A stretch of DNA of 24,000 nucleotides from Chroococcidiopsis sp. CCMEE 29 (lineage in GTDB: Bacteria; Cyanobacteriota; Cyanobacteriia; Cyanobacteriales; Chroococcidiopsidaceae). The DNA is taken from the NCBI RefSeq assembly GCF_023558375.1, contig NZ_CP083762.1, positions 64,273-88,272 of the forward strand, read 5' to 3'. Both the position numbers and the translations under genes were made by a program. Below are positions 3,434-22,054 of the stretch, piece after piece. The notes under the pieces are model-generated. The model saw only the letters and a program-made list of their open reading frames with translations, was not told where the DNA came from and searched no databases. Each line of letters begins with the position of its first letter. Position 1 is the stretch's first letter.

Positions 3434-3517
3434 AACTAACTTAACCTTAGAATTCGGCAGATGAGCTTTAAATACCGTCGCCACAGGTAACTCAAGCCGC
3501 ATAATAAATAGTTAGCC
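3434..3517. repeat. Central attC-like palindrome (C) between divergent cassettes
   Basis: AACTAAC ... GTTAGCC on the plus strand reads GGCTAAC ... GTTAGTT on the minus strand. Inner pairing is weak. GNAT leaves leftward and the hydrolase rightward from this site. Confidence 0.3.
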
Positions 3518-3536
3518 GCTGCCAACAGGGGAGGTT

Positions 3537-4433
3537 ATGTACCGAAAGCACATCCATACGACACGTTTGGAAATCGCCTATTTGGAAGACGGCCCCGAAG
3601 ACGGCGCACCCGTACTCCTTCTACACGGCTTCCCGGACGACGCGACCGGCTGGCGGGATGTCATGGCAGGTCTGGCGGCGCAGGGCTACCGTGCGCTGGC
3701 ACCATACATCCGTGGTTGCGGCCTGACCCGGTTCCTGCGGACCGATACGCCGCGAGCCGGGGACTTCGCGGCGCTTGGCCAAGACGCCGTGGATTTCGTG
3801 GACGCGCTGGCCCTCAACAACTTAATCGTGGTCGGCCAGGATTGGGGCTCGCCGACCGCCGAGGTCGTCGCGATGCAACGTCCCGACCGTGTCCGGAGGC
3901 TGGTGAAGCTGAATTGGTACGGCGTCTACTCGATGGCGGAGATGGCGCGGGCGCGGGAGTTTTCCTACCCGCAGCTGCGCGCCCTGTGGTACGTCTGGAT
4001 GTTCAACACGCCTTTGGGCGAGATGACCCTCAGAAACGACCGCGCCGGGCTGGCTAGGGCGCTGTGGACCGAGTGGTCGCCCACCTGGGATGCCGCGGCG
4101 CGGGAAGCGGCGCTCGGTGCCGTCGCCGGCTCATTCGACGGGGAGGACTGGGTGAGGGTCGCCCTTTCGGCGTACCGTGTGGGCATCACGGATGCGGAGA
4201 TGGACCGCGCCGACGATGCCCTACGTGAGAGGCTGAAGGAACCGCCGCCCTGCGCGTGCGAGGCCGTTATCCTGAACGGTGCTGACGATGGTGTGGAACG
4301 AACCCCGCTTGAAGAGACGGCGCTCGCGCGCTACTTCCCCGCCGGGGCGCGGGTCGAGACGCTTGATGGTGTCGGGCACTTCCCCCAGCGAGAATTACCC
4401 GTTGCGGTGATTCGCTTTATCCTCGGCCAGTAG
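3537..4433 (+). CDS. Alpha/beta hydrolase fold protein (epoxide hydrolase / haloalkane dehalogenase-like)
   Basis: 298 aa with HGFPD (oxyanion region) and the nucleophile-elbow-like GQDWGS. It is conspicuously GC-rich compared with all neighbours. Confidence 0.85.
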   Translation: MYRKHIHTTRLEIAYLEDGPEDGAPVLLLHGFPDDATGWRDVMAGLAAQGYRALAPYIRGCGLTRFLRTDTPRAGDFAALGQDAVDFVDALALNNLIVVGQDWGSPTAEVVAMQRPDRVRRLVKLNWYGVYSMAEMARAREFSYPQLRALWYVWMFNTPLGEMTLRNDRAGLARALWTEWSPTWDAAAREAALGAVAGSFDGEDWVRVALSAYRVGITDAEMDRADDALRERLKEPPPCACEAVILNGADDGVERTPLEETALARYFPAGARVETLDGVGHFPQRELPVAVIRFILGQ

Positions 4434-4445
4434 CCACCCAGTCGC

Positions 4446-4547
4446 GGCTAACAACGGCACGCACCCGACCGCGGATAGCGTTGCCTTCATCCGCGAGACT
4501 TGTCGCTGGCAAAAGTTCGTCGCGGCGGGTGATGCCTGGCGTTAGGC
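4446..4547 (+). repeat. attC-like recombination-site candidate (D) after the hydrolase ORF
   Basis: GGCTAAC-aacggcacGCACCCGACCGCGG...CGCGGCGGGTGatgcctggc-GTTAGGC. The arms pair with bulged bases. It shares GCACCCGACC..CGGGTG and the GTTAGGC box with site A. It starts 12 nt after the stop. Confidence 0.5.
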
Positions 4548-4708
4548 GGAGATTAAGCGTGGGATATGGTTTTACCTAAAGCTTGCCCCATGTTGAGAAC
4601 ACACAACCTTCCATGAGTCAACTCCTCATACCCCTACCAACAGGTTTTGACCGCACCCGCAAGCTCCAACGCCGGCAGTCAGCAGAAAACAATAGACGTT
4701 TATAGGAC

Positions 4709-5668
4709 TTACGCATTGACAAAAGACTGATTATGTAAATTCACTTCAAGTTTCTGCTGGAGGTGTTCTAGAATGAATTCCCTTGCCACCTGTAGGTACA
4801 AATTCTTTTGTAATTCGTACCAGTTTTCAATTAGTTCTTCAGCTCGCATTAACTCTAACTTAGTAAAGGCTCGGATTGAACAAAAAATGTGAGTTTTAAT
4901 AGCCTCACTTGTTCTGACCATAAACCGCGAAACTCCACACAGTTGTTTCAAGGCTCGGTGATAGCATTCAATTCCCCAATGGATTGAGTGCGACTCATTG
5001 AATTCCTGTCGGCTAACTTGTTCGGTAGCATCTGAATTAGGTAGGTATGTAATGTAGTATCTCTCGGCTTCGTTTTTGAATATCCTCCGAAATACTTTGA
5101 CGCGCCCAAAGTTTTTCAGATGTATTACCAAACCTTGGTCAGGAATTTCCAAATTTTGTACCTGGGTGTAATTTTTACCATCAGTTGAGACTTTTCGATT
5201 TTTGGCAATACCCATGAGAAATCCTACTTCCCGGTTTTTCAAGAATTTCAGATTTTCAAGGGCTGAATACCAAGCATCACCAGTTACCGTTTCTGGCTGC
5301 AAGCCCCAAGCCAAAACCTCCGTAATCATTACTCGAAAGTAATCGTTTTTTGTCAAACCCTCCCGCTTATCGTAGATCCGATAATTAACTGGGATAGACT
5401 TAGCTGATGCGTCGGTGTAATACAGGGTAATGAGGTGAAGCCCTTTAACAATTCGATGATGTTTTCCTGACCAAAAGTATCCAATTAGTTCAGCTAAATT
5501 TGGCTCACTATAAGGTTTATCAATAACGGTATCGTCACAGCTTAAAGTGCCGCCCACCAATTGAATGTGTGGTTTTATCTCTTCAAACAAGTCTTTAGGT
5601 TGATATCTTTCCCTTAACAAGAAGCGATTGACGCTGTCGTGTGAGACGTGCTTAAGAATTTCTGACAA
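4709..5668 (-). CDS. DDE transposase, IS4/IS701-superfamily (family tentative)
   Basis: 319 aa in the ORF track from an internal TTG. The frame stays open to 5803 (adding ...STIREITKPSTAKCNLDTYTLFLLAEPKYAGCNRL) with no ATG/GTG/TTG in that stretch. DDE-like landmarks: CDDTVIDKPY, GDAWY, HWGIECYHRALKQ. The stop lies inside the IR. Confidence 0.75.
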   Translation of the reverse strand: MSEILKHVSHDSVNRFLLRERYQPKDLFEEIKPHIQLVGGTLSCDDTVIDKPYSEPNLAELIGYFWSGKHHRIVKGLHLITLYYTDASAKSIPVNYRIYDKREGLTKNDYFRVMITEVLAWGLQPETVTGDAWYSALENLKFLKNREVGFLMGIAKNRKVSTDGKNYTQVQNLEIPDQGLVIHLKNFGRVKVFRRIFKNEAERYYITYLPNSDATEQVSRQEFNESHSIHWGIECYHRALKQLCGVSRFMVRTSEAIKTHIFCSIRAFTKLELMRAEELIENWYELQKNLYLQVAREFILEHLQQKLEVNLHNQSFVNA

Positions 5669-5966
5669 GCGGTTGCAGCCTGCGTACTTAGGTTCAGCTA
5701 ACAGGAATAAGGTATAAGTGTCGAGGTTGCATTTGGCTGTAGATGGTTTTGTAATCTCTCTGATGGTCGAATATCCCTGGGAAGTAAAACTATTTGCTGA
5801 AAGTTAAAGGGTGCAGTCAGTAGATAATATCTCTAATCAACTATTTCCATATCTATCAACTCCACTCCATCTCGAACTACCTAAGCACAAAAAGCGATCT
5901 TGAATGTTTTATGGCAAGGATGTATGCACGGAGTGCACCTGTCTGTTCAACTGACTTAACTCACTC

Positions 5967-6584
5967 TTAGGCTTGTTGTAATTCTCTCCAAGACTGAGAA
6001 ACAACTTTAGAAGCTGATTTGACAAAGACTACGGTGAGCAGAAGTCCGACAACTAAATCGGGTAGCAAAGAGTTTGTCAGAAATACGAAAAAAGCAGCTC
6101 CCAGAACAGAAGTGTTAGCAATGATATCATTGCGAGAACAAAGCCATACCGAGGACATATTAATATTGTCGTTTCTGTGTCTAGTCAATAAGAATAGACA
6201 CAGCAAGTTGGCAAACAAGGCTATTAACCCTACCGCACTCATTGCCCTCACCTCTGGCATTGTCTGAGCAAATAGCTGATAGCTGGCTCTGGCGAAGACA
6301 GCCACAGCTGACAAAAACATAATGCTCCCCTTGAGCAGTGCCGACCTTGCTTGAGCCTTCCTCCCTTGGTTGATGACTAAAAGACTACTACCATAAACCA
6401 ACGCATCCCCTAGCATATCGAGCGAATCTCCCGTCAGCGAAAGTGATGCAGACCTAATACCAGCTCCTAATTCCACCACAAACATTACGGCATTGATGAG
6501 CAGAACGGTCCACAAAACTCTACTCTGCTGTTTTCTGAGTTTGGACACTTCGCCAGCCTTCTTGTGGCAGCAATCATCACTCAT
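5967..6584 (-). CDS. Cation diffusion facilitator (CDF) family metal transporter, short form
   Basis: 205 aa. Cys/His-rich N-terminus (MSDDCCHKK), multiple hydrophobic helices and the CDF signature-like SLTGDSLDMLGDA. It lacks a long cytoplasmic C-terminal domain. Confidence 0.75.
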   Translation of the reverse strand: MSDDCCHKKAGEVSKLRKQQSRVLWTVLLINAVMFVVELGAGIRSASLSLTGDSLDMLGDALVYGSSLLVINQGRKAQARSALLKGSIMFLSAVAVFARASYQLFAQTMPEVRAMSAVGLIALFANLLCLFLLTRHRNDNINMSSVWLCSRNDIIANTSVLGAAFFVFLTNSLLPDLVVGLLLTVVFVKSASKVVSQSWRELQQA

Positions 6585-6713
6585 GGTTCACCTCCCAGCT
6601 ATGACGCTTAGAAGACAATTGTTCAAACATTCAAAACAATATTAGAATGATTGTCCCCGAAAAACTCAAACATTCAAAAAAAGTTAGAATCTTAACCACT
6701 TACAATCGAATGG

Positions 6714-7136
6714 CTAGCCTGCTATTTGCCCGAGTGCATAATAGAGAACTTCTACAATACGTTGGTCTTTTAGTGAGTAGTAGGCAAGTTTGCCATCATT
6801 TCTGTACTTGAGTATCTTGAGGTCTCGCAGTTTTCGCAGATGGTGGGAGGCAACTGCTACCTTAACCCCAAGCATTGATGCTACGTCACAGACGCAAAGC
6901 TCTTGATTATTACTGAGGGCATAGAGGATTTTTAGTCGTGACTTGTCTGCTAGAGCACTGAAGAGTATTTGAGCTTCTTCCAGAACCTCGTCCCCAGGCA
7001 TTGCTTCACAGACTTGGGTTACCAAGTCTATATTAAAACACCGCACCTGACAGACATCGTCTGGTTTTGGTTTTGTCACAAAATTTCTACAGCACCAGCG
7101 CTCAGGACAACACCTCCAGTTTAGCGGTTTTTGCAA
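6714..7136 (-). CDS. ArsR/SmtB family metal-responsive transcriptional repressor
   Basis: Winged-helix core with the ELCVCD metal-site motif and SHHLRKLRD recognition helix. Cys-rich N-terminal extension (CCPERWCC, VCQVRC). The start is uncertain: TTG 7136, an internal GTG, or ATG at MPGDE. Confidence 0.8.
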   Translation of the reverse strand: MQKPLNWRCCPERWCCRNFVTKPKPDDVCQVRCFNIDLVTQVCEAMPGDEVLEEAQILFSALADKSRLKILYALSNNQELCVCDVASMLGVKVAVASHHLRKLRDLKILKYRNDGKLAYYSLKDQRIVEVLYYALGQIAG

Positions 7137-7339
7137 TCTCTACAGAAGGTTTGATTCATTAGTTAATCCTACGGCTGAGTTTACCCTCTACTGGCTCTTA
7201 CCTGAAAGAACTAATTCATAATCAATGTTTCCACATGCAGATAACTGTTCTTCTGTCAATGCGTAAGTCCTAGTTTATTGTTTTTGAGCAGCAGGCAAGC
7301 TCCAGATAGATTGGTACCACTGCCCATGCCCACAATTCA

Positions 7340-14130: not shown

Positions 14131-14646
14131 ATGGAAACGAACCAAACCGAACACACCTCACACATGCCTGTTCAACCTCAAAAAGAACATCAGTGGCTCC
14201 AGAAACTTGTCGGTGAGTGGACCTATGAATCCGAAGCGCTGATGGGACCCGATCAACCTCCCGTCAAGTCAACGGGAACAGAAACAGTTCGCTCACTGGG
14301 TGGACTCTGGATATTGGCAGAAGGACAGGGTGAGATGCCGGGTTGTGGTCCTGCAACGACACTGATGACCCTCGGCTACGATCCTCAAAAACAGCGTTAT
14401 GTAGGCACCTGGGTCGGGTCAATGATGACGTACCTCTGGGTGTATGACGGTGAATTAGATGCAGGGGAAACTGTGCTAACGCTCAATTCCGATGGACCTG
14501 TCATGACGGGTGAGGAGAAACTAGGAAAGTACAAAGACGCGATCGAGTTCAAGAGCGACAATCATCGAATTTTGACCTCCCATATGTTGAGAGATGACGG
14601 GCAGTGGCAGCACTTCATGACCGCCCATTATTGGCGCAAGCAATAA
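14131..14646 (+). CDS. DUF1579 family protein
   Basis: 171 aa. LQKLVGEWTYE ... SLGGLWILAEGQGEMPG ... TLGYDPQKQRYVGTWVGSMMTYLW. Confidence 0.7.
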   Translation: METNQTEHTSHMPVQPQKEHQWLQKLVGEWTYESEALMGPDQPPVKSTGTETVRSLGGLWILAEGQGEMPGCGPATTLMTLGYDPQKQRYVGTWVGSMMTYLWVYDGELDAGETVLTLNSDGPVMTGEEKLGKYKDAIEFKSDNHRILTSHMLRDDGQWQHFMTAHYWRKQ

Positions 14647-14932
14647 ATGCTCCACGATTCTCTTGTAAGTTGCCATTTAATCTGGCTCCAGTCTCGCACG
14701 CGCATCCAGTCAGAACCAGGTTGTGTACCGATTGCCTGAAATCCGTAACGTTCTGCCAACCGGGATACTCTCAGGTTGGCACTTACAGAAATACCGATAA
14801 TCTCCTTCAGTCCCAAATCGCGGAACCCAAAATCAATCAGAGCTTTCCCGACTTCAATGGCATAGGCATAACGTCCCCAGTACTGTGGTGCTAGCTCAAT
14901 TCCAAGTTCTGCCTGCCCAGCAGCATAGCTGG
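14628..14932 (-). pseudogene. GNAT (RimJ/RimL-like) acetyltransferase, C-terminal ~100 codons only
   Basis: The frame is open up to the intron boundary: ..AELGIELAPQYWGRYAYAIEVGKALIDFGFRDLGLKEIIGISVSANLRVSRLAERYGFQAIG. The N-terminal ~70 codons are missing and were not found on the far side of the mobile block. Confidence 0.65.
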
Positions 14933-17418
14933 ATGCCTAAGCCAGGAAGTCACCCCCCTGACTCGGCTACAAAACCGTGCATGAAACGTTAATTTCACAC
15001 GGCTCCTCGATGATTTGGTGCTTGACAAGCACACCTCTAAATTCAGAGTTAAAAGGGATTACAGTTGAGATAATCCTCATCTATCTCTGGAACTGTAAGA
15101 GCAACTTTATCTGCTGCCGTTTTAGCATCGTGGCAATGTCCATGAAGTAATTGAAGATTGTCATAACTATCCTTACCGCCTTGAGAGCGGGGTATTTTAT
15201 GGTCGATTTCCATCAAGTCATCATGGTGAAAAAACAGTCCACAGTGAGTACACTTTCCTTTCTGCATCTTCAAGAGTGTTGCCATTCTTTTTGAAGCTTC
15301 AGGATGTTTACCCATTCTGGAACTCCAGTACACCCAATCACCATCAAACGGGCTACGACTTCCTTGCACTTGTATGTGTCTCACAATGCGAGTTTCACGG
15401 TGCTTGAGTAAGCGAATTTTCTGGTTATGGGGTTTAAATACCCAGTTATCAGACCCTACGGTTTGCCAATACTTTTGACAACTCCATCGGGAGGATTTAT
15501 TGGGGTGACGATGTTCTGCCCATGCTTTTAGCTGGCTGAATAATGTTGTATCCGCCTGGTTAAATATGCGTTTGCTGACGACGCCTGAGTAGTAGTTTGT
15601 CCATCCACGGATGACAGGATTTAGATGGGTGATTAAATCAGATTGTGGTACTGACTTATGCCCATCAATCAATTTACCTATCTTCTGCATATGTGCCTTC
15701 AGCTTTGTTTTGCTTGGGGTAATCAGAGTTTTGTAACCAAGTAATTTTCCGCTTGAGCTTTTACCACTGTGATATTTTCCTACAGGAAATTGTCGAACAG
15801 TGAAACCCAGAAAATCAAAACCAACTTTACCTTCATACATATTAAGTGTATGGGATATTCGGGTTTTACTTGGTTTGAATTCCAGCCCCAATTCGCTTAA
15901 CCATTCACTAATAATCTGCTGACATCTTTGGATAACGGCAAGGTCTTTATGCAGAATGACGAAATCATCTGCAAATCGAATTAAGCTTATTGCTGTATAG
16001 TTCGCCGCTAGAGAGCCAGGTAGACTTAAAGCAACTTGTTTAATTCTATTCTCCATGCCGTGGAGGGCTATATTCGCTAATAATGGCGAAATCGTACCCC
16101 CTTGTGGAACACCCATCGATGTTGTGTGGTCAGATTTCTCCCTCAAAGCATATTCGGAGAAATCAATCACTCCCGCTTTTAACCATGCACGAATTTGTCG
16201 GCGGATGGTGGGGAATGTATTTAATTTTGACAGCAGAACATTATGATGAATTTTGTCAAAACATTTTGCAATGTCGGCATCCAAAACATATTTAGGTTTG
16301 AGCTTAATAGTGTTGAATATTGCCTTCATTGCATCATGGGCATTTCTTCCTGGTCGGAAGCCGAAGGAGTTTGGCTCGAAACGAGCTTCCCATTCAGGTT
16401 CTAGGGCTAGTTTTACTAGCGATTGCAAGGCGCGGTCGTATAGAGTGGGTATAGAAAGGGGTCTTTTTTCTCCTGATGAACCGGGTTTTGGTATCCACAC
16501 CCTGCGAGTGGGGGCGGCTTTATGACCTAGTTTCAAGGATTGTACTAAGATGAGACGTGCTTTTGGGGACAAGTTTTTCTGCCCATCCACTCCTGCCGTC
16601 TTCTTACCTCGGTTTTCCTGTGTTACCCGACGAACCGCTAAACACTTTGCTGACCAGGAGCGTAACAACGTTTTTTGGAGTTGACGAACTGCTTTGACAT
16701 CACCACGCTGCGAGGCTTTGTAGATGCGCTTTTGCAACTTAAACACTTTCCGCTCTAGCTTTCGCCAGGGGATAGTCTTCCATTCCACCGTAGTCTTAAA
16801 ACTCGTTTTAGACATATAAATTGCTACTGGTACCTCTACAATCCAAGTCACCGTGCCTCCGTCTGCATATCCTCTGGCTTTCCCAAAGGCTTTGGCTTCT
16901 GAGGCAATCCTTCCCCTTGAAGGCTTGCGGCTGGCTACCTACTTAGGAAATCGACCATTTCCTGAGAGCGCATCAGGGGGTTACTTCGTTCCAATTCTTC
17001 GTTTGTCGCTGGTTTTAGGGTTCTCTCTCTTCACCGGGTTTATTGTGAGTGCATATTGGTCTGCCGCTTAATCAGCCAACCACTTATCCTTTCCCTTTTG
17101 GGACAAGCCTGACAGCCTTTTGGCTTGTTTTGCATTACGATGATTCAGTCAAGAGATTTGTATTCCTACCCATGACCAGCTATGCTAGGCGGGATTCCGC
17201 ATTAGGCTTGCAGTTACCGCCATGATTCCCCGCTTCATCCCATCAAAGAACCACTTGGCTGAAATGGGGGACTCGCTGTCACTCCTGCACTTGGAGGGAT
17301 GGAATTACACCATCACGAAAAATTGAGTTATCAAGGAACAGGAGAAGATTTCTCTCTTCTATCTTCCTTGTCTGTCATCCCCGAATATTTCTATTCGTTT
17401 CGACAGAACGAATCACAC
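14933..17418 (-). mobile_element. Group II intron, copy 1 (2486 nt)
   Basis: It starts GTGTG (17418 downward), has the RT/maturase/HNH ORF in domain IV, a canonical domain V and a domain VI with bulged A, and ends ..GGCAT at 14933 (+/-1-2 nt). Confidence 0.9.
15049..16851 (-). CDS. Group II intron reverse transcriptase/maturase with HNH endonuclease domain
   Basis: RT blocks (RRVWIPKPGSSGEKRPLSIPTLYDRALQ; FADDFVIL in place of YADD), X/maturase (RGWTNYY) and HNH (CTHCG...DHKIPRSQGG...HGHCH). The likely true start is ATG 16815 (MSKTSF..). The ORF-track start is a GTG. Confidence 0.9.
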   Translation of the reverse strand: MTWIVEVPVAIYMSKTSFKTTVEWKTIPWRKLERKVFKLQKRIYKASQRGDVKAVRQLQKTLLRSWSAKCLAVRRVTQENRGKKTAGVDGQKNLSPKARLILVQSLKLGHKAAPTRRVWIPKPGSSGEKRPLSIPTLYDRALQSLVKLALEPEWEARFEPNSFGFRPGRNAHDAMKAIFNTIKLKPKYVLDADIAKCFDKIHHNVLLSKLNTFPTIRRQIRAWLKAGVIDFSEYALREKSDHTTSMGVPQGGTISPLLANIALHGMENRIKQVALSLPGSLAANYTAISLIRFADDFVILHKDLAVIQRCQQIISEWLSELGLEFKPSKTRISHTLNMYEGKVGFDFLGFTVRQFPVGKYHSGKSSSGKLLGYKTLITPSKTKLKAHMQKIGKLIDGHKSVPQSDLITHLNPVIRGWTNYYSGVVSKRIFNQADTTLFSQLKAWAEHRHPNKSSRWSCQKYWQTVGSDNWVFKPHNQKIRLLKHRETRIVRHIQVQGSRSPFDGDWVYWSSRMGKHPEASKRMATLLKMQKGKCTHCGLFFHHDDLMEIDHKIPRSQGGKDSYDNLQLLHGHCHDAKTAADKVALTVPEIDEDYLNCNPF

Positions 17419-17648
17419 TAGCGACCTGCAATTATAAATGCTCAAACCTGCAAACAAGTCATTTTCAAACCAGCGTTTTCTTGACTTTCCTATTGGTAAG
17501 AGTTTCTGAACCCTAAACCGCCTACTCTCTAGTTAAAAAAGTCGGTAAAGAATTCAAAGTTAACTTATCAAATGCTGAGATGAGTTTTTTTGACAACCCC
17601 TGCAAGTCCTCACAGCCCAGTGCTAATAAGGCGTTTACTCTATTTGCA

Positions 17649-19500
17649 AATAATCCTGGGTCTTCCGCGATTTTGATGATGGAGAGGAATGTCACGGATG
17701 AGCGATCGCTCTTGATTGGAAACAGGATGAGGCGATCACCATTGGATGAACTGAAAACAGCAGAACAGAGAGTTCTAAACTGCCAATAAGAATCGTCGCT
17801 CAAGCAGCTCCATCCCAGCGCGACCATACATCTGCCGCTTCAACATCTTCAGTCGATTGATCTGCCCTTCGGTTTGACCGTTGCTCCAAGGAAGTGTTAC
17901 ACCTGCCTTAACAGCATCATAGTCCTCTTGCAGCCGTTTGGCAAAGCGGTTGAAAGGAGAAAGCTGGCTATGGAGCGCCTGTTCTAACCAAGGGTCGAGT
18001 TGCTCTGGCTGTCTGTCACGCACGAGAAAGGCAAAGCTTTGAGCGAGTTCAATCGCTTGGGTGAGGTCAGGATGCTGTGCCATGGCTTGTACGAGCTGTG
18101 CGTCATCTGGTTCCCAATTCTCCGGTCGTCGCGCTGCACATCTGGTAGTGCGGCGAGGTGTGAGCGCCAGTTTCTGGGGTTCACTCACCTTTGGCAGTTG
18201 CTTAATTGAACGCCGTCGTTTCCTGCGTTGCGTTCCTTGGGCTTGACGAAAGCGACGGGTATAGCGAGCTACTGTGTCATAGCTGCCAGAATAACCACGT
18301 TGTTGAATCTCCCCAAACAACCGCAAGGTATCATGACAACCATCGTTCCAACGTTCAAGAACATAGTCTTTGTAAGGGTCAACTAAGCGGCTCCGACCAC
18401 AGTCACGGCGTCCTTGGCGCTCCGGGAAGGTGGAACTGTGTAGGTAACGAAATACCGTCGTGCGACCAATCCCCACCTGACGAGCAATTGCTGGCACCAA
18501 CCAGCCTTGGTGGTGTAATTCCCAGACTCTCTTGTAATCTGCTTCTCGCCTCGACCGACGTTGTTCGGCAATGCTTTGCTCCTTGGGCAGCGGCTGCGGT
18601 GGCAACACTGGTACAACTGCGGTACTCTCAGGACTGATTACTGATGACAGGCTGTGTATTGCCCCAACTGTCTTAAGAGCTTGACTTTGTGCGCCAAACG
18701 CTTCAGCCAATGTTTCAGCCAGGTTTTGCAGCAGATGAAATCGGTCTGCTACTTGGATAGCCGTCGGTGCCCCTTGCCGAATGCCCCTTTCGTAAGCTTT
18801 GGAGCGATCTCGGGTGACGATTTCCACGCCTGGATGAACACAGAGCCAGTTGGCTAACGTCGATGCTTCCCGATCTGGCAGGAGCTCGATTGGTCGATGT
18901 TGTTCCAGGTTCACCAGAATTGTGCCGTAACGTCGCCCTTTCCGCCATGCCCAATCATCAACTCCAAGCACGCGGGGAGTCGCGTTGACAGCTAACCGAC
19001 TTTGATGAATGCGTCGCAATATCGTGTCCGGGCTGATAGGCATCCCTAGCCCCACCGCTAGCTTCACTCTAGCTTGACCACCTAGCATCATCCCAATCAG
19101 ATGCAGGGCATCATTGAATCGTACCGTTTGTCTACCATAAGCAGCGACGACGCGGGGCAGCCGTTCACAGAAAATTCGTCGTACACATGTCCGATTGACA
19201 CAGAAGAACCGACGGGTGAGTAGTTGTATTTGTACAGTAGCTCCTTGCCAAGGTAGATCTGTGAGTATGCGTTCGTAGCGACTATGTACCTGTGATGAAG
19301 GTTGGTGGCATTTGGGGCACAGAGCTACCGCTCTGATTGTCTTGACAACCAAGACCACTTGCGTGTCTTCTACAGAGAGGCTTTCTAGAGCGAGTACTTG
19401 AGGGTCAGCGAGGAGAGGGCTTTGATTCATATAACCCTCTTATTATAGCGAATTGCTACCTCATGCTTCATCAAAATTGCGGAAGACCCGTAATTACAGC
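17649..19500 (-). mobile_element. ISL3-family insertion sequence
   Basis: IRs GGGTCTTCCGCGATTTTGATGA (17658-17679) and TCATCAAAATTGCGGAAGACCC (19468-19489). Flanking direct repeat CTATTTGCA (17640-17648 and 19501-19509). Confidence 0.85.
17775..19430 (-). CDS. ISL3 family transposase
   Basis: 551 aa. N-terminal zinc finger CPKCHQPSSQVHSRYER, LPWQG motif, central DDWAWRKGRRYGT and a C-terminal SNGQTEGQINRLKMLKRQMYGRA signature. Confidence 0.9.
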   Translation of the reverse strand: MNQSPLLADPQVLALESLSVEDTQVVLVVKTIRAVALCPKCHQPSSQVHSRYERILTDLPWQGATVQIQLLTRRFFCVNRTCVRRIFCERLPRVVAAYGRQTVRFNDALHLIGMMLGGQARVKLAVGLGMPISPDTILRRIHQSRLAVNATPRVLGVDDWAWRKGRRYGTILVNLEQHRPIELLPDREASTLANWLCVHPGVEIVTRDRSKAYERGIRQGAPTAIQVADRFHLLQNLAETLAEAFGAQSQALKTVGAIHSLSSVISPESTAVVPVLPPQPLPKEQSIAEQRRSRREADYKRVWELHHQGWLVPAIARQVGIGRTTVFRYLHSSTFPERQGRRDCGRSRLVDPYKDYVLERWNDGCHDTLRLFGEIQQRGYSGSYDTVARYTRRFRQAQGTQRRKRRRSIKQLPKVSEPQKLALTPRRTTRCAARRPENWEPDDAQLVQAMAQHPDLTQAIELAQSFAFLVRDRQPEQLDPWLEQALHSQLSPFNRFAKRLQEDYDAVKAGVTLPWSNGQTEGQINRLKMLKRQMYGRAGMELLERRFLLAV

Positions 19501-19568
19501 CTATTTGCACTTAATGTGGTTTTGAAACCTTGTTTGCAGTTTGAGGCTCTGCTGTTTGCAGGTCGCTA

Positions 19569-22054
19569 GTGTGATTCGTTCTGTCGAAACGAATAGAAAT
19601 ATTCGGGGATGACAGACAAGGAAGATAGAAGAGAGAAATCTTCTCCTGTTCCTTGATAACTCAATTTTTCGTGATGGTGTAATTCCATCCCTCCAAGTGC
19701 AGGAGTGACAGCGAGTCCCCCATTTCAGCCAAGTGGTTCTTTGATGGGATGAAGCGGGGAATCATGGCGGTAACTGCAAGCCTAATGCGGAATCCCGCCT
19801 AGCATAGCTGGTCATGGGTAGGAATACAAATCTCTTGACTGAATCATCGTAATGCAAAACAAGCCAAAAGGCTGTCAGGCTTGTCCCAAAAGGGAAAGGA
19901 TAAGTGGTTGGCTGATTAAGCGGCAGACCAATATGCACTCACAATAAACCCGGTGAAGAGAGAGAACCCTAAAACCAGCGACAAACGAAGAATTGGAACG
20001 AAGTAACCCCCTGATGCGCTCTCAGGAAATGGTCGATTTCCTAAGTAGGTAGCCAGCCGCAAGCCTTCAAGGGGAAGGATTGCCTCAGAAGCCAAAGCCT
20101 TTGGGAAAGCCAGAGGATATGCAGACGGAGGCACGGTGACTTGGATTGTAGAGGTACCAGTAGCAATTTATATGTCTAAAACGAGTTTTAAGACTACGGT
20201 GGAATGGAAGACTATCCCCTGGCGAAAGCTAGAGCGGAAAGTGTTTAAGTTGCAAAAGCGCATCTACAAAGCCTCGCAGCGTGGTGATGTCAAAGCAGTT
20301 CGTCAACTCCAAAAAACGTTGTTACGCTCCTGGTCAGCAAAGTGTTTAGCGGTTCGTCGGGTAACACAGGAAAACCGAGGTAAGAAGACGGCAGGAGTGG
20401 ATGGGCAGAAAAACTTGTCCCCAAAAGCACGTCTCATCTTAGTACAATCCTTGAAACTAGGTCATAAAGCCGCCCCCACTCGCAGGGTGTGGATACCAAA
20501 ACCCGGTTCATCAGGAGAAAAAAGACCCCTTTCTATACCCACTCTATACGACCGCGCCTTGCAATCGCTAGTAAAACTAGCCCTAGAACCTGAATGGGAA
20601 GCTCGTTTCGAGCCAAACTCCTTCGGCTTCCGACCAGGAAGAAATGCCCATGATGCAATGAAGGCAATATTCAACACTATTAAGCTCAAACCTAAATATG
20701 TTTTGGATGCCGACATTGCAAAATGTTTTGACAAAATTCATCATAATGTTCTGCTGTCAAAATTAAATACATTCCCCACCATCCGCCGACAAATTCGTGC
20801 ATGGTTAAAAGCGGGAGTGATTGATTTCTCCGAATATGCTTTGAGGGAGAAATCTGACCACACAACATCGATGGGTGTTCCACAAGGGGGTACGATTTCG
20901 CCATTATTAGCGAATATAGCCCTCCACGGCATGGAGAATAGAATTAAACAAGTTGCTTTAAGTCTACCTGGCTCTCTAGCGGCGAACTATACAGCAATAA
21001 GCTTAATTCGATTTGCAGATGATTTCGTCATTCTGCATAAAGACCTTGCCGTTATCCAAAGATGTCAGCAGATTATTAGTGAATGGTTAAGCGAATTGGG
21101 GCTGGAATTCAAACCAAGTAAAACCCGAATATCCCATACACTTAATATGTATGAAGGTAAAGTTGGTTTTGATTTTCTGGGTTTCACTGTTCGACAATTT
21201 CCTGTAGGAAAATATCACAGTGGTAAAAGCTCAAGCGGAAAATTACTTGGTTACAAAACTCTGATTACCCCAAGCAAAACAAAGCTGAAGGCACATATGC
21301 AGAAGATAGGTAAATTGATTGATGGGCATAAGTCAGTACCACAATCTGATTTAATCACCCATCTAAATCCTGTCATCCGTGGATGGACAAACTACTACTC
21401 AGGCGTCGTCAGCAAACGCATATTTAACCAGGCGGATACAACATTATTCAGCCAGCTAAAAGCATGGGCAGAACATCGTCACCCCAATAAATCCTCCCGA
21501 TGGAGTTGTCAAAAGTATTGGCAAACCGTAGGGTCTGATAACTGGGTATTTAAACCCCATAACCAGAAAATTCGCTTACTCAAGCACCGTGAAACTCGCA
21601 TTGTGAGACACATACAAGTGCAAGGAAGTCGTAGCCCGTTTGATGGTGATTGGGTGTACTGGAGTTCCAGAATGGGTAAACATCCTGAAGCTTCAAAAAG
21701 AATGGCAACACTCTTGAAGATGCAGAAAGGAAAGTGTACTCACTGTGGACTGTTTTTTCACCATGATGACTTGATGGAAATCGACCATAAAATACCCCGC
21801 TCTCAAGGCGGTAAGGATAGTTATGACAATCTTCAATTACTTCATGGACATTGCCACGATGCTAAAACGGCAGCAGATAAAGTTGCTCTTACAGTTCCAG
21901 AGATAGATGAGGATTATCTCAACTGTAATCCCTTTTAACTCTGAATTTAGAGGTGTGCTTGTCAAGCACCAAATCATCGAGGAGCCGTGTGAAATTAACG
22001 TTTCATGCACGGTTTTGTAGCCGAGTCAGGGGGGTGACTTCCTGGCTTAGGCAT
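19569..22054 (+). mobile_element. Group II intron, copy 2 (2486 nt)
   Basis: GTGTG at 19569. Domain V GAGCCGTGTGAAATTAACGTTTCATGCACGGTTT at 21982-22015. Domain VI GCCGAGTCAGG...CCTGGCTTAGGC with bulged A. Ends GGCAT at 22054. By-eye comparison with copy 1 found no differences. Confidence 0.9.
20136..21938 (+). CDS. Group II intron reverse transcriptase/maturase with HNH endonuclease domain
   Basis: 600-aa translation identical to the copy at 15049-16851. The probable ATG start is at 20172. Confidence 0.9.
   Translation: MTWIVEVPVAIYMSKTSFKTTVEWKTIPWRKLERKVFKLQKRIYKASQRGDVKAVRQLQKTLLRSWSAKCLAVRRVTQENRGKKTAGVDGQKNLSPKARLILVQSLKLGHKAAPTRRVWIPKPGSSGEKRPLSIPTLYDRALQSLVKLALEPEWEARFEPNSFGFRPGRNAHDAMKAIFNTIKLKPKYVLDADIAKCFDKIHHNVLLSKLNTFPTIRRQIRAWLKAGVIDFSEYALREKSDHTTSMGVPQGGTISPLLANIALHGMENRIKQVALSLPGSLAANYTAISLIRFADDFVILHKDLAVIQRCQQIISEWLSELGLEFKPSKTRISHTLNMYEGKVGFDFLGFTVRQFPVGKYHSGKSSSGKLLGYKTLITPSKTKLKAHMQKIGKLIDGHKSVPQSDLITHLNPVIRGWTNYYSGVVSKRIFNQADTTLFSQLKAWAEHRHPNKSSRWSCQKYWQTVGSDNWVFKPHNQKIRLLKHRETRIVRHIQVQGSRSPFDGDWVYWSSRMGKHPEASKRMATLLKMQKGKCTHCGLFFHHDDLMEIDHKIPRSQGGKDSYDNLQLLHGHCHDAKTAADKVALTVPEIDEDYLNCNPF

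What the first reader, a model, noticed from the sequence alone, without database searches (positions are those of the whole stretch)
4698..7277. A 2.57-kb IS moved as one unit with a metal-resistance cargo (ArsR/SmtB repressor + CDF exporter)
Perfect 19-bp inverted repeats (4703-4721 and 7254-7272) are bounded by a 5-bp direct repeat GTTTA. This shows that the whole segment inserted in one transposition event. Inside it, three co-directional genes read ArsR/SmtB, then a short CDF transporter, then the DDE transposase. No second IR was found between cargo and transposase. This is therefore a passenger-carrying IS rather than an IS sitting next to resident genes.
Basis: seen in the sequence. 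Interest (0 to 1): 0.7.

Follow-up and report, generated by a model that had tools for sequence, protein, structure and literature searches.

The report
Insertion sequence carrying a metal-efflux operon
A 2,570-bp jumping gene of the IS701 family in the desert cyanobacterium Chroococcidiopsis carries, inside its own ends, a complete metal-sensing repressor plus metal-export pump, so a single hop can move a ready-regulated metal-tolerance module to a new site or genome.

Summary
Window 4703-7272 is bounded by 24-nt terminal inverted repeats (23/24 complementary, first 19 perfect) and a 5-bp duplication, GTTTA. All three genes lie on the minus strand: a CadC-like ArsR repressor, a 205-aa domain-poor CDF exporter, then an IS701-family (ISAba11-like) transposase.

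- **It behaves as one unit.** A public assembly holds a contig that is exactly these 2,570 bases, tip to tip.
- **It occurs elsewhere.** Copies 90-95% identical, with the same end-to-cargo junction, sit at three other sites. One of these is a complete but decayed copy.
- **No internal end.** No relic inverted repeat lies between cargo and transposase.
- **Relatives.** Cargo-free relatives are 1.1-1.26 kb. MITEs share the same ends, and 22 of 37 paired elements have exact 5-bp duplications.
- **Cargo origin.** The arsR-CDF pair, with two conserved operator palindromes, also occurs widely without any IS, so it is a captured resident operon.
- **Other cargo.** Sister elements (transposase about 80% identical) carry TetR-amidase or MarR-GNAT cargo instead.

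It is a new member of a known kind (a passenger-carrying IS, or "tIS"), and I found no description of one in the IS701 family. Metal specificity and current mobility are inferred, not shown.

The parts
4698..4702 (.). Target-site duplication GTTTA, on the transposase-proximal side
   Evidence: Read from the sequence. It is identical to 7273-7277. A 5-bp TSD is typical of the group.
4703..4726 (.). Terminal inverted repeat at the transposase end (TAGGACTTACGCATTGACAAAAGA). The transposase stop codon TAA (4709-4711) lies inside it.
   Evidence: The same 19-mer ends more than 120 elements in other genomes.
4709..5764 (-). IS701-family (ISAba11-like) DDE transposase. It is 351 aa if translation starts at ATC 5764-5762, the position of Met1 in canonical homologues. 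The first standard start is TTG at 5668 (319 aa).
   Evidence: NCBIfam NF049921 transpos_IS701_2 scores 399 bits against a cut-off of 250, covering profile positions 2-316 of 318. Pfam DDE_Tnp_1 also matches. Homologues start MRxxxKPSTAKC. ATC or ATT sits at this codon in 18 of 22 related loci. The frame is open and uninterrupted.
5765..5966 (-). Spacer between the CDF stop and the transposase start. It is variable among copies (33-bp and 111-bp indels). No relic IR and no terminator-like site were found on the sense strand.
5967..6584 (-). Passenger gene 2: a 205-aa cation diffusion facilitator made of the membrane domain only, with an N-terminal CC motif and a predicted D56/D60/C149/D153 metal site.
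   Evidence: Pfam Cation_efflux scores 53 bits against a cut-off of 26.6 and covers profile positions 1-197 of 198. Family alignment is, and the profile alignment to ZnT7 HxxxD sites is. Annotated WP_250121382.1 'cation transporter'.
6629..6648 (.). Operator-like palindrome O2 (ATTCTAATATTGTTTTGAAT on the gene strand), about 45 nt upstream of the CDF start.
   Evidence: The motif occurs only in this spacer within the window. It is present in 12 of 14 IS-free arsR-CDF operons and absent from more than 100 kb of their flanks.
6672..6690 (.). Operator-like palindrome O1 (ATTCTAACTTTTTTTGAAT on the gene strand).
6714..7079 (-). Passenger gene 1: a 121-aa ArsR/SmtB metalloregulator of the CadC type. 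It has the N-terminal Cys pair plus ELCVCD and no alpha5 His site.
   Evidence: NF033788 scores 81.4 bits against a cut-off of 55. The best solved relative is CadC 1u2w, E = 1e-22, aligned end to end. Annotated WP_250121383.1.
7080..7248 (-). Subterminal region between the cargo-side IR and arsR, which presumably holds the arsR promoter. It is conserved only among the arsR-CDF elements (82-89%).
7249..7272 (.). Terminal inverted repeat at the cargo end.
7273..7277 (.). Target-site duplication GTTTA, on the cargo side.

Best explanation
Window 4703-7272 is a passenger-carrying insertion sequence (a 'tIS') of the ISAba11-like branch of the IS701 family, in the chromosome of Chroococcidiopsis sp. 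CCMEE 29.

Transposition (inferred). The DDE transposase recognises the two 24-nt terminal repeats. Because the left repeat lies upstream of arsR, everything between the repeats moves together and a 5-bp AT-rich target duplication results.

The cargo. It is a self-contained two-gene module captured from a resident operon. A CadC-like ArsR repressor binds two ATTC(T/A)AA-N5-7-TT(T/A)GAAT palindromes in front of the CDF gene. Binding of a thiophilic divalent metal (most likely Cd, Zn or Pb) to its Cys4 site releases it. The membrane-domain-only CDF, with a predicted Asp-Asp-Cys-Asp site, then exports the metal.

What is shown: the boundaries, the duplication, the gene content, family membership, the unit at several sites, and conservation of the operator.

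What is inferred: which metal is sensed and exported, the cut-and-paste chemistry, present-day activity, and translation of the transposase from an AUC codon.
For: - Boundaries and TSD. The 5-bp TSD is the rule in this group (22 of 37; ISAba11).
- The unit as a repeat: contig L001 is 2,570 bp and equals the element exactly. Contigs L004 and L002 from other runs also start and end exactly at the IR tips.
- The same unit elsewhere: L130/L131 (95%), L217 (93%, both IRs present), L132-L136 (remnant, 90%) and L003 (92%), with four different left flanks in all.
- No internal IR.
- Transposase: the curated IS701 model is passed. The nearest named relatives are ISCysp21/ISCysp20 (58-59%), ISPna6 (48%) and ISAba11 (45%).
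- Cargo-free relatives of 1,116-1,261 bp and MITEs of 130-520 bp use the same ends.
- Cargo origin: adjacent arsR-CDF pairs without IR or transposase occur in many metagenome contigs. One sits on a Chondrocystis plasmid beside a multicopper oxidase and a CoaT ATPase, with its regulator annotated cadC.
- Regulator. Exporter site. Operators.
Against: - No second complete copy with a matching TSD was recovered. The complete copy L217 has unlike flanks (GTATC versus ATTTA), a one-base insertion in its IR, and a broken transposase.
- The multi-copy state in the source genome rests on reading one assembly contig, because the full chromosome could not be searched.
- The transposase has no ATG, GTG or TTG at the canonical start, and NCBI lists no protein accession for it.
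- No promoter was detectable by consensus scan.
- No experiment links this CDF subfamily or this regulator to a particular metal.
- The operator pattern was written after looking at the sequences, although its background count is zero.
Confidence: 0.85

Rival explanations
1. Accidental or decayed composite. An ordinary 1.2-kb IS that has lost its own left end sits beside resident arsR-CDF genes, and the repeat at 7249-7272 belongs to an unrelated MITE or solo end. On this view the 2.57 kb never moved as one piece.
For: MITEs and solo ends with exactly this repeat are very abundant. Some IR pairs enclose resident genes without a TSD or a transposase (L117). In L129 a 10-nt IR core lies between cargo and transposase, and the outer ends have no TSD. 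The complete copy L217 also lacks a TSD.
Against: There is an exact 5-bp duplication around the outer ends. An assembly contig equals the element tip to tip. The same outer-IR-arsR junction is found at four different sites, and the same CDF-transposase junction in three diverged copies. No relic IR scores above shuffled controls. Such a composite may well be how the element first arose, but it does not describe the present element.
Confidence: 0.04
2. A real passenger-carrying IS that is now a dead relic. The transposase cannot be made because its start codon is lost, so the element is fixed in place or moves only with help from related copies.
For: ATC stands where homologues have ATG, and the first standard start gives a protein lacking about 32 N-terminal residues. 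There is no NCBI protein record. Decayed copies exist (L217, L132-L136).
Against: The same ATC or ATT is found in 18 of 22 related loci, including elements with intact TSDs. It is preceded by a conserved AGG/AGGG about 10-13 nt upstream, which suggests a regular, weak start rather than a lesion. The 351-codon frame is intact and covers the whole IS701 profile. The 100%-identical tip-to-tip contig argues for recent copying.
Confidence: 0.15
3. The cargo is not a metal-resistance module. The ArsR-family protein senses something else (redox, sulfide or arsenite), or the domain-poor CDF is not an exporter of Zn, Cd or Pb.
For: ArsR-family members sense many signals; weaker hits to TsoR, BigR and SdpR models appear. 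The CDF falls below the curated full-length CDF cut-off (70 against 82.35 bits). It has no significant single-sequence match to any solved structure.
Against: The best solved relative is CadC, aligned end to end with all four Cys ligands of the Cd/Pb/Zn site. The TM2/TM5 site aligns with the zinc site of ZnT7. The gene pair is conserved as a unit with operators. It sits in a metal-resistance cluster on a plasmid, and relatives occur on plasmids from mine tailings and acidophiles.
Confidence: 0.1

Closest known systems
ISAba11 and ISCysp20/ISCysp21 (IS701 family)
   Same: The transposase type is the same: it passes the curated IS701 model, with 58-59% identity to the ISCysp elements and 45-46% to ISAba11. 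Both have terminal inverted repeats and an AT-rich 5-bp target duplication. The cargo-free core is about 1.1-1.26 kb, against 1,101 bp for ISAba11.
   Different: This element is 2,570 bp long and carries two passenger genes between the left end and the transposase gene. Its transposase is less than 60% identical to any named element seen here, so by ISfinder practice it would receive a new name. ISfinder itself could not be queried.
tIS ('transporter IS') of the IS1595 and IS66 families, and IS231-group elements with extra DNA between the left end and the transposase gene
   Same: The architecture is the same: one IS-type transposase, one pair of ends and a target duplication, with passenger genes unrelated to transposition inside the ends. 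[quoted passage not shown]
   Different: The IS family is different. [quoted passage not shown] The 2008 IS4/IS701 survey saw this modular aspect only in IS231. Here the passenger is a complete regulated operon.
The cadCA cadmium-resistance operon of Staphylococcus aureus pI258 (CadC repressor)
   Same: The regulator aligns end to end with CadC and keeps its four Cys ligands (the ligand identities are from my knowledge of CadC). An AT-rich palindromic operator lies in front of the efflux gene. The logic of metal-released repression of an exporter is the same.
   Different: The exporter is a membrane-domain-only CDF, not a P-type ATPase. The alpha5 site of CadC is not conserved. The host is a cyanobacterium, and the module rides inside an IS.
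Composite (IS-flanked) metal- or drug-resistance transposons
   Same: They mobilise resistance genes with IS-family transposases.
   Different: Only one transposase gene and one pair of ends are present here, with no inner ends.

Membership tests
IS701 family (ISAba11-like branch) | A DDE transposase that matches the family profile above the curated cut-off | tested here: met
   NF049921.1 transpos_IS701_2 scores 399 bits (cut-off 250), E = 1.7e-119, covering profile positions 2-316 of 318. The database names of homologues are 'IS701 family transposase'.
IS701 family (ISAba11-like branch) | Terminal inverted repeats at both ends | tested here: met
   24 nt with 23/24 complementary. Positions 5-7 (ACT) and 12-13 (CA) fit the published end consensus ---YACT-Y--YR, while positions 4 and 9 do not.
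IS701 family (ISAba11-like branch) | A short target duplication: 4 bp in most IS701 elements, 5 bp for ISAba11 | tested here: met
   The duplication here is 5 bp, GTTTA. That differs from the 4 bp given for the classic IS701 set. It equals ISAba11 and 22 of 37 relatives with the same ends.
IS701 family (ISAba11-like branch) | An incomplete YREK motif after the catalytic Glu | tested here: inconclusive
   By eye, the motif around HWGIECYHRALK reads H-(2)-H-(3)-E-(6)-K. Tyr and Arg are absent, as expected for IS701. The catalytic Glu was assigned from motif position only.
tIS (passenger-carrying IS) | IS-like structure: a single transposase, one pair of IRs and a TSD | tested here: met
tIS (passenger-carrying IS) | One or more genes unrelated to transposition inside the IRs | tested here: met
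   ArsR and CDF lie between the left IR and the transposase gene.
tIS (passenger-carrying IS) | The unit, cargo included, is found at more than one site | tested here: met
   There are four different left flanks, one further complete copy, and a tip-to-tip contig. A second copy with an intact TSD was not recovered.
tIS (passenger-carrying IS) | Observed transposition of the unit | not testable with these tools
   This needs a transposition assay or a comparison of strains.
ArsR/SmtB metalloregulators, CadC (alpha3N) type | A winged-helix ArsR domain above the curated cut-off | tested here: met
   NF033788 scores 81.4 bits (cut-off 55) and Pfam HTH_5 scores 52 bits (cut-off 22).
ArsR/SmtB metalloregulators, CadC (alpha3N) type | Cys ligands of the CadC sensing site: two in the N-terminal arm and the CVC in helix alpha3 | tested here: met
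   Alignment to 1u2w shows DVC and RCF in the arm and ELCVCD in alpha3. The ligand numbering (Cys7, 11, 58, 60) is from my knowledge of CadC.
ArsR/SmtB metalloregulators, CadC (alpha3N) type | Metal-dependent release from the operator | not testable with these tools
   Only the conserved palindromes could be shown.
Cation diffusion facilitator (CDF) superfamily | A six-helix Cation_efflux membrane domain | tested here: met
   PF01545 scores 53 bits (cut-off 26.6) and covers profile positions 1-197 of 198.
Cation diffusion facilitator (CDF) superfamily | A full-length CDF with the cytoplasmic C-terminal domain (TIGR01297 cut-off) | tested here: not met
   The score is 70 bits against a cut-off of 82.35, and only profile positions 2-198 of 285 are matched. 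All 25 aligned relatives end at about 200-205 aa. It is therefore filed as a membrane-domain-only subfamily, not as a canonical CDF.
Cation diffusion facilitator (CDF) superfamily | A metal site on TM2 and TM5 ((H/D)xxxD twice) | tested here: met
   D56xxxD60 and C149xxxD153 are invariant in 25 sequences. They align with the HxxxD pairs of ZnT7. Cys replaces His on TM5.

The most novel reading that the evidence does not exclude
The transposase lineage to which this element belongs (members about 80% identical) may be a modular cargo-capturing branch of IS701. It would repeatedly pick up 'regulator plus effector' cassettes between its left end and the transposase gene: ArsR-CDF here, TetR-amidase in L006/L005/L127, and MarR-GNAT in L129. 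The effector is always co-directional with the transposase, and no terminator was found between them. Read-through from the signal-induced cargo promoter could therefore raise transposase transcription, making transposition inducible by the very stress the cargo relieves. A weak AUC/AUU start codon would keep the basal level low.
Probability: 0.2. Interest if true: 0.65.

Novelty: new member of a known kind. Interest (0 to 1): 0.42.

Why it matters
Insertion sequences are usually treated as carrying nothing but their transposase, with resistance genes thought to travel on larger transposons. This is a minimal one-transposase element that moves a complete, self-regulated metal-efflux operon. 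It belongs to an IS family for which the papers I could read do not list passenger-carrying members. Its sister elements carry other regulator-plus-enzyme cassettes. That gives a concrete, testable system for asking how an IS captures neighbouring genes, since MITEs and solo ends with the same repeats are abundant raw material. It also bears on how small adaptive modules spread among cyanobacteria. In addition, it points to an uncharacterised, widespread CDF subfamily that lacks the regulatory C-terminal domain and has a Cys in its metal site.

Tried and rejected
- A megablast of the whole element against PLSDB plasmids gave no match.
- Looking up the 95-aa ArsR variant P0128, listed on a 5.7-Mb NCBI contig and so suggestive of a second copy in the source genome, found nothing on record. 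Copy number in the chromosome therefore remains unverified.
- The metagenome scan with the CDF returned only relatives of 78% identity or less, all outside any IS.
- L127 (1,122 bp) was first taken as a cargo-free close relative. Its first bases match the 3' end of the amidase cargo, so it is a fragment of the amidase-type element.
- The ABC exporter next to the transposase in L128 is not cargo, because a 1,216-bp IS with its own left IR ends before it.
- L117 (an IR pair 2,232 bp apart) holds a permease gene but no transposase and no TSD, so it is not counted as a tIS.
- L129 (MarR-GNAT) is only a candidate. It has no TSD, and a 10-nt IR core lies between cargo and transposase.
- The consensus promoter and terminator scan was at shuffle level and says nothing about expression.
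- A single-sequence search of the CDF against solved structures found nothing; a family profile was needed.
- The direct repeats TCAAACATTCAAA reported by the repeat finder turned out to be halves of the two palindromic operators.
- The 16-nt subterminal inverted repeat at 4824-4839 / 7206-7221 overlaps conserved transposase coding sequence and was not pursued.
Full report
**1. The observation**

Arms 4703-4726 and 7249-7272 are 24 nt long and 96% complementary, and their outer 19 nt are perfect. The 19-mer TAGGACTTACGCATTGACA occurs only at these two places in the window, even with three mismatches allowed, and shuffles give none. The five bases outside each arm are GTTTA (4698-4702 and 7273-7277).

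Three ORFs lie between the arms, all on the minus strand and in the order given:
- an ArsR-family regulator, 6714-7079/7136;
- a 205-aa Cation_efflux protein, 5967-6584;
- a DDE transposase, 4709-5668, with its frame open up to 5803.

The transposase stop codon lies inside the terminal repeat.

**2. Source and family**

Exact-sequence look-ups place the window in the 5.72-Mb chromosome of Chroococcidiopsis sp. CCMEE 29. The cargo proteins are annotated WP_250121382.1 (cation transporter) and WP_250121383.1 (ArsR/SmtB metalloregulator).

The transposase passes NCBI's curated IS701 model NF049921 (399 bits, cut-off 250). Its homologues are cyanobacterial 'IS701 family' transposases of 343-375 aa. 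Among annotated plasmids the nearest named elements are ISCysp21/ISCysp20 (58-59% identity), ISPna6 (48%) and ISAba11 (45-46%).

ISAba11 is about 1.1 kb and makes a 'characteristic 5 bp direct repeat' such as ATTTA or TATAG. The classic IS701 set was described with 4-bp duplications and sizes of 1.4-1.55 kb.

**3. What the ends belong to**

These came from Nostocales, Stigonema and Microcoleus, and also from Beggiatoa, Thioploca, Thiomargarita and other Gammaproteobacteria.

Pairing the ends gives two classes:
- canonical, cargo-free IS of 1,116-1,261 bp with a transposase (L035, L042, L052, L060, L090, L098, and L128 at 3610-4825);
- many MITEs of 130-520 bp.

In 22 of 37 pairs the five flanking bases are identical and AT-rich. 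The GTTTA duplication in the window therefore has the length and composition that this transposase group produces.

**4. Does the 2.57 kb move as one piece?**

Four lines of evidence say yes.

(a) The duplication surrounds the outer ends.

(b) A Logan contig from run SRR15174965 is 2,570 bp and equals the element from tip to tip at 100% identity. In a de Bruijn assembly a contig that stops exactly at both tips is what a repeat with unlike flanks gives. A single-copy or polymorphic insertion would run on into its flanks. In other runs the element is split into two contigs that begin and end exactly at the tips (L004 and L002).

(c) The same arrangement, diverged by 5-10%, sits elsewhere:
- L130/L131 hold IR-arsR-CDF and the start of the transposase at 95%, with flank CCCCAACTATCG, beside a peptidase C14 gene.
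- L132-L136 hold a remnant (IR plus the first 454 bases, 90%) with flank AATTGGCAATAA.
- L217 holds a complete copy of 2,453 bp (93%) next to a CP12 gene.
- L003 holds CDF-transposase-IR at 92%.

(d) No relic of an inner end exists. No IR-like 19-mer with up to five mismatches lies inside, and local alignments of canonical left ends against the interior score no better than shuffled sequences.

The weak point is L217, the only other complete copy. It is decayed, with an internal stop in the transposase and a one-base insertion in its IR, and its flanks do not match each other. A second intact duplication was therefore not seen.

**5. The transposase**

Canonical homologues begin MR(T/V)xxKPSTAKC. 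In the window the corresponding codons read ATC AGA ... (5764-5762 onward), and no ATG, GTG or TTG is available before TTG 5668.

This is not peculiar to this copy. Among 22 related loci the codon is ATC in 13, ATT in 5, ATG in 3 and GTG in 1. An AGG/AGGG lies about 10-13 nt upstream. From ATC the frame gives 351 aa covering the whole IS701 profile, with the expected acidic motifs (CDDTVIDKPYS, TGDAWYS, HWGIECYHRALK; read by eye).

I take this as a probable weak AUC/AUU start, which would be a translational brake. That is an inference.

Relative to L003 the window has a 33-bp insertion and a 1-bp deletion, and L217 has a 111-bp deletion. All of these are upstream of the ATC, in the variable spacer.

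**6. The cargo**

*The regulator.* It passes the curated metalloregulator model. Its best solved relative is CadC of pI258 (1u2w, E = 1e-22), aligned over the whole length. It keeps the two N-terminal Cys and the ELCVCD motif, while the His of the alpha5 site is replaced (the ligand roles are from my knowledge of CadC).

*The exporter.* It matches the entire Pfam membrane domain. It fails the full-length CDF cut-off because the cytoplasmic domain is absent. This is the native state of a large subfamily. The metagenome scan found more than 550 relatives, and all 25 aligned sequences are about 200-205 aa. Their invariant residues are C5, C6, D53, D56, D60, C149, D153 and N157. A family profile aligns D56xxxD60 and C149xxxD153 with the two HxxxD pairs of human ZnT7.

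*The operators.* Two palindromes lie between the genes, ATTCTAACTTTTTTTGAAT (6672-6690) and ATTCTAATATTGTTTTGAAT (6629-6648). The pattern occurs nowhere else in the window. It is present, usually twice, in 12 of 14 arsR-CDF spacers from unrelated contigs and is absent from more than 100 kb of their flanks.

*Origin.* Those contigs carry no IS701 transposase and no IR. A Chondrocystis plasmid has the same pair (regulator annotated cadC) beside a multicopper oxidase and a CoaT ATPase. The cargo is therefore a resident, self-regulated operon that was captured whole. A Cys-rich sensor and a Cys-containing transport site point to Cd, Zn or Pb, but no experiment supports a particular metal.

**7. 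Relatives with other cargo**

Transposases about 80-84% identical to this one sit in three kinds of element:
- L006 is a 3,574-bp contig that starts at an IR-like tip and holds TetR (divergent), a 488-aa amidase and the transposase before the right IR. L005 and L127 keep the same amidase-transposase junction.
- L129 has perfect and near-perfect IRs 2,769 bp apart around a MarR-GNAT fusion and the transposase. It has no duplication, and a 10-nt IR core lies between cargo and transposase, so it may be a composite caught in the act.
- L128 is a plain 1,216-bp IS.

In every cargo-bearing case the cargo sits between the left end and the transposase gene, with the effector co-directional with it.

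**8. How it compares with what is known**

Passenger-carrying IS are a recognised class, the tIS. [quoted passage not shown] The IS6 review says a number of families have such members. [quoted passage not shown]

Full-text searches for IS701 with passenger genes, or for an IS carrying ArsR and a CDF, found no description of an element like this. ISfinder could not be consulted.

I therefore class it as a new member of a known kind. The architecture and logic are familiar. The family, the cargo and the sister elements with other cassettes are additions.

**9. Verdict**

It is a tidy, well-supported example rather than a surprise.

The more interesting possibilities are untested. One is that this IS701 branch captures regulator-effector cassettes repeatedly. 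Another is that read-through from the cargo promoter makes transposition stress-inducible; no terminator-like site lies between the CDF and the transposase. A third is that the AUC/AUU start acts as a throttle on transposase synthesis.

Noticed in passing
window 5762-5764 (minus strand); also L003, L005, L006, L127-L131, L217 and others: At the codon that is Met1 in canonical homologues, most DNA copies of this IS group have ATC or ATT (18 of 22 loci), with an AGG/AGGG about 10-13 nt upstream. This suggests routine use of a weak non-AUG start for the transposase.
   Followed up: partly
L007-L126 (genome-contig hits): The 19-nt end TAGRACTTACGCATTGACA is shared by more than 120 stretches in cyanobacteria and in large sulfur bacteria and other Gammaproteobacteria (Beggiatoa, Thioploca, Thiomargarita, Methylobacter, Contendobacter). 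Most are MITEs of 130-520 bp with 5-bp duplications, so one IS/MITE family spans two phyla.
   Followed up: partly
L006 1-3574; L005; L127; L129 1033-3801: Sister elements (transposase about 80-84% identical) carry TetR plus amidase, or a MarR-GNAT fusion, between the left end and the transposase. L129 has a 10-nt IR core at 2405 between cargo and transposase and no TSD, so it may be a composite intermediate.
   Followed up: partly
window 4686-4702 and 7273-7284: The insertion target was itself a palindrome: AAAACAATAGAC-GTTTA-TTGTTTT (repeat finder pair I6). Whether this IS group prefers hairpin-forming AT-rich targets was not examined.
   Followed up: no
window 3501-4500: A sharp G+C island (63-67%, against 40-52% around it) holds an alpha/beta-hydrolase gene (3537-4433, plus strand). 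It is probably foreign DNA and lies immediately next to the IS.
   Followed up: no
window 7649-9375, 14923-21938: The neighbourhood is crowded with mobile elements. These are an IS110-family transposase (7649-8719, minus strand), an IS1 InsA-like ORF (8866-9375, minus) and an ISL3 transposase with an extra HTH_7 domain (17775-19430, minus). There are also two group II intron RT/maturase-HNH genes with identical domain scores (15049-16851 minus, 20136-21938 plus) and one Rfam group II intron match at 14923-15007. The IS sits 371 bp downstream of the IS110 gene and may lie inside that element.
   Followed up: no
L004 and L002 (runs SRR15174967 and one more): In these assemblies the element is split into two contigs that overlap by exactly 30 nt at window 5836-5865. 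This implies a branch there, meaning a variant copy differing near the 33-bp indel seen against L003.
   Followed up: no
L117 243-2474: Two ends of this IS family lie 2,232 bp apart around a 512-aa permease-like gene, with no transposase and no TSD. This is an example of ends bracketing a resident gene, which is possible raw material for capture.
   Followed up: partly
window 9902-14646: An ECF-type sigma factor with DUF6596 and TPR (9902-11212, minus strand) is followed by a run of small YCII, glyoxalase-like, DUF899 and DUF1579 genes on the plus strand. This cluster is unrelated to the finding.
   Followed up: no
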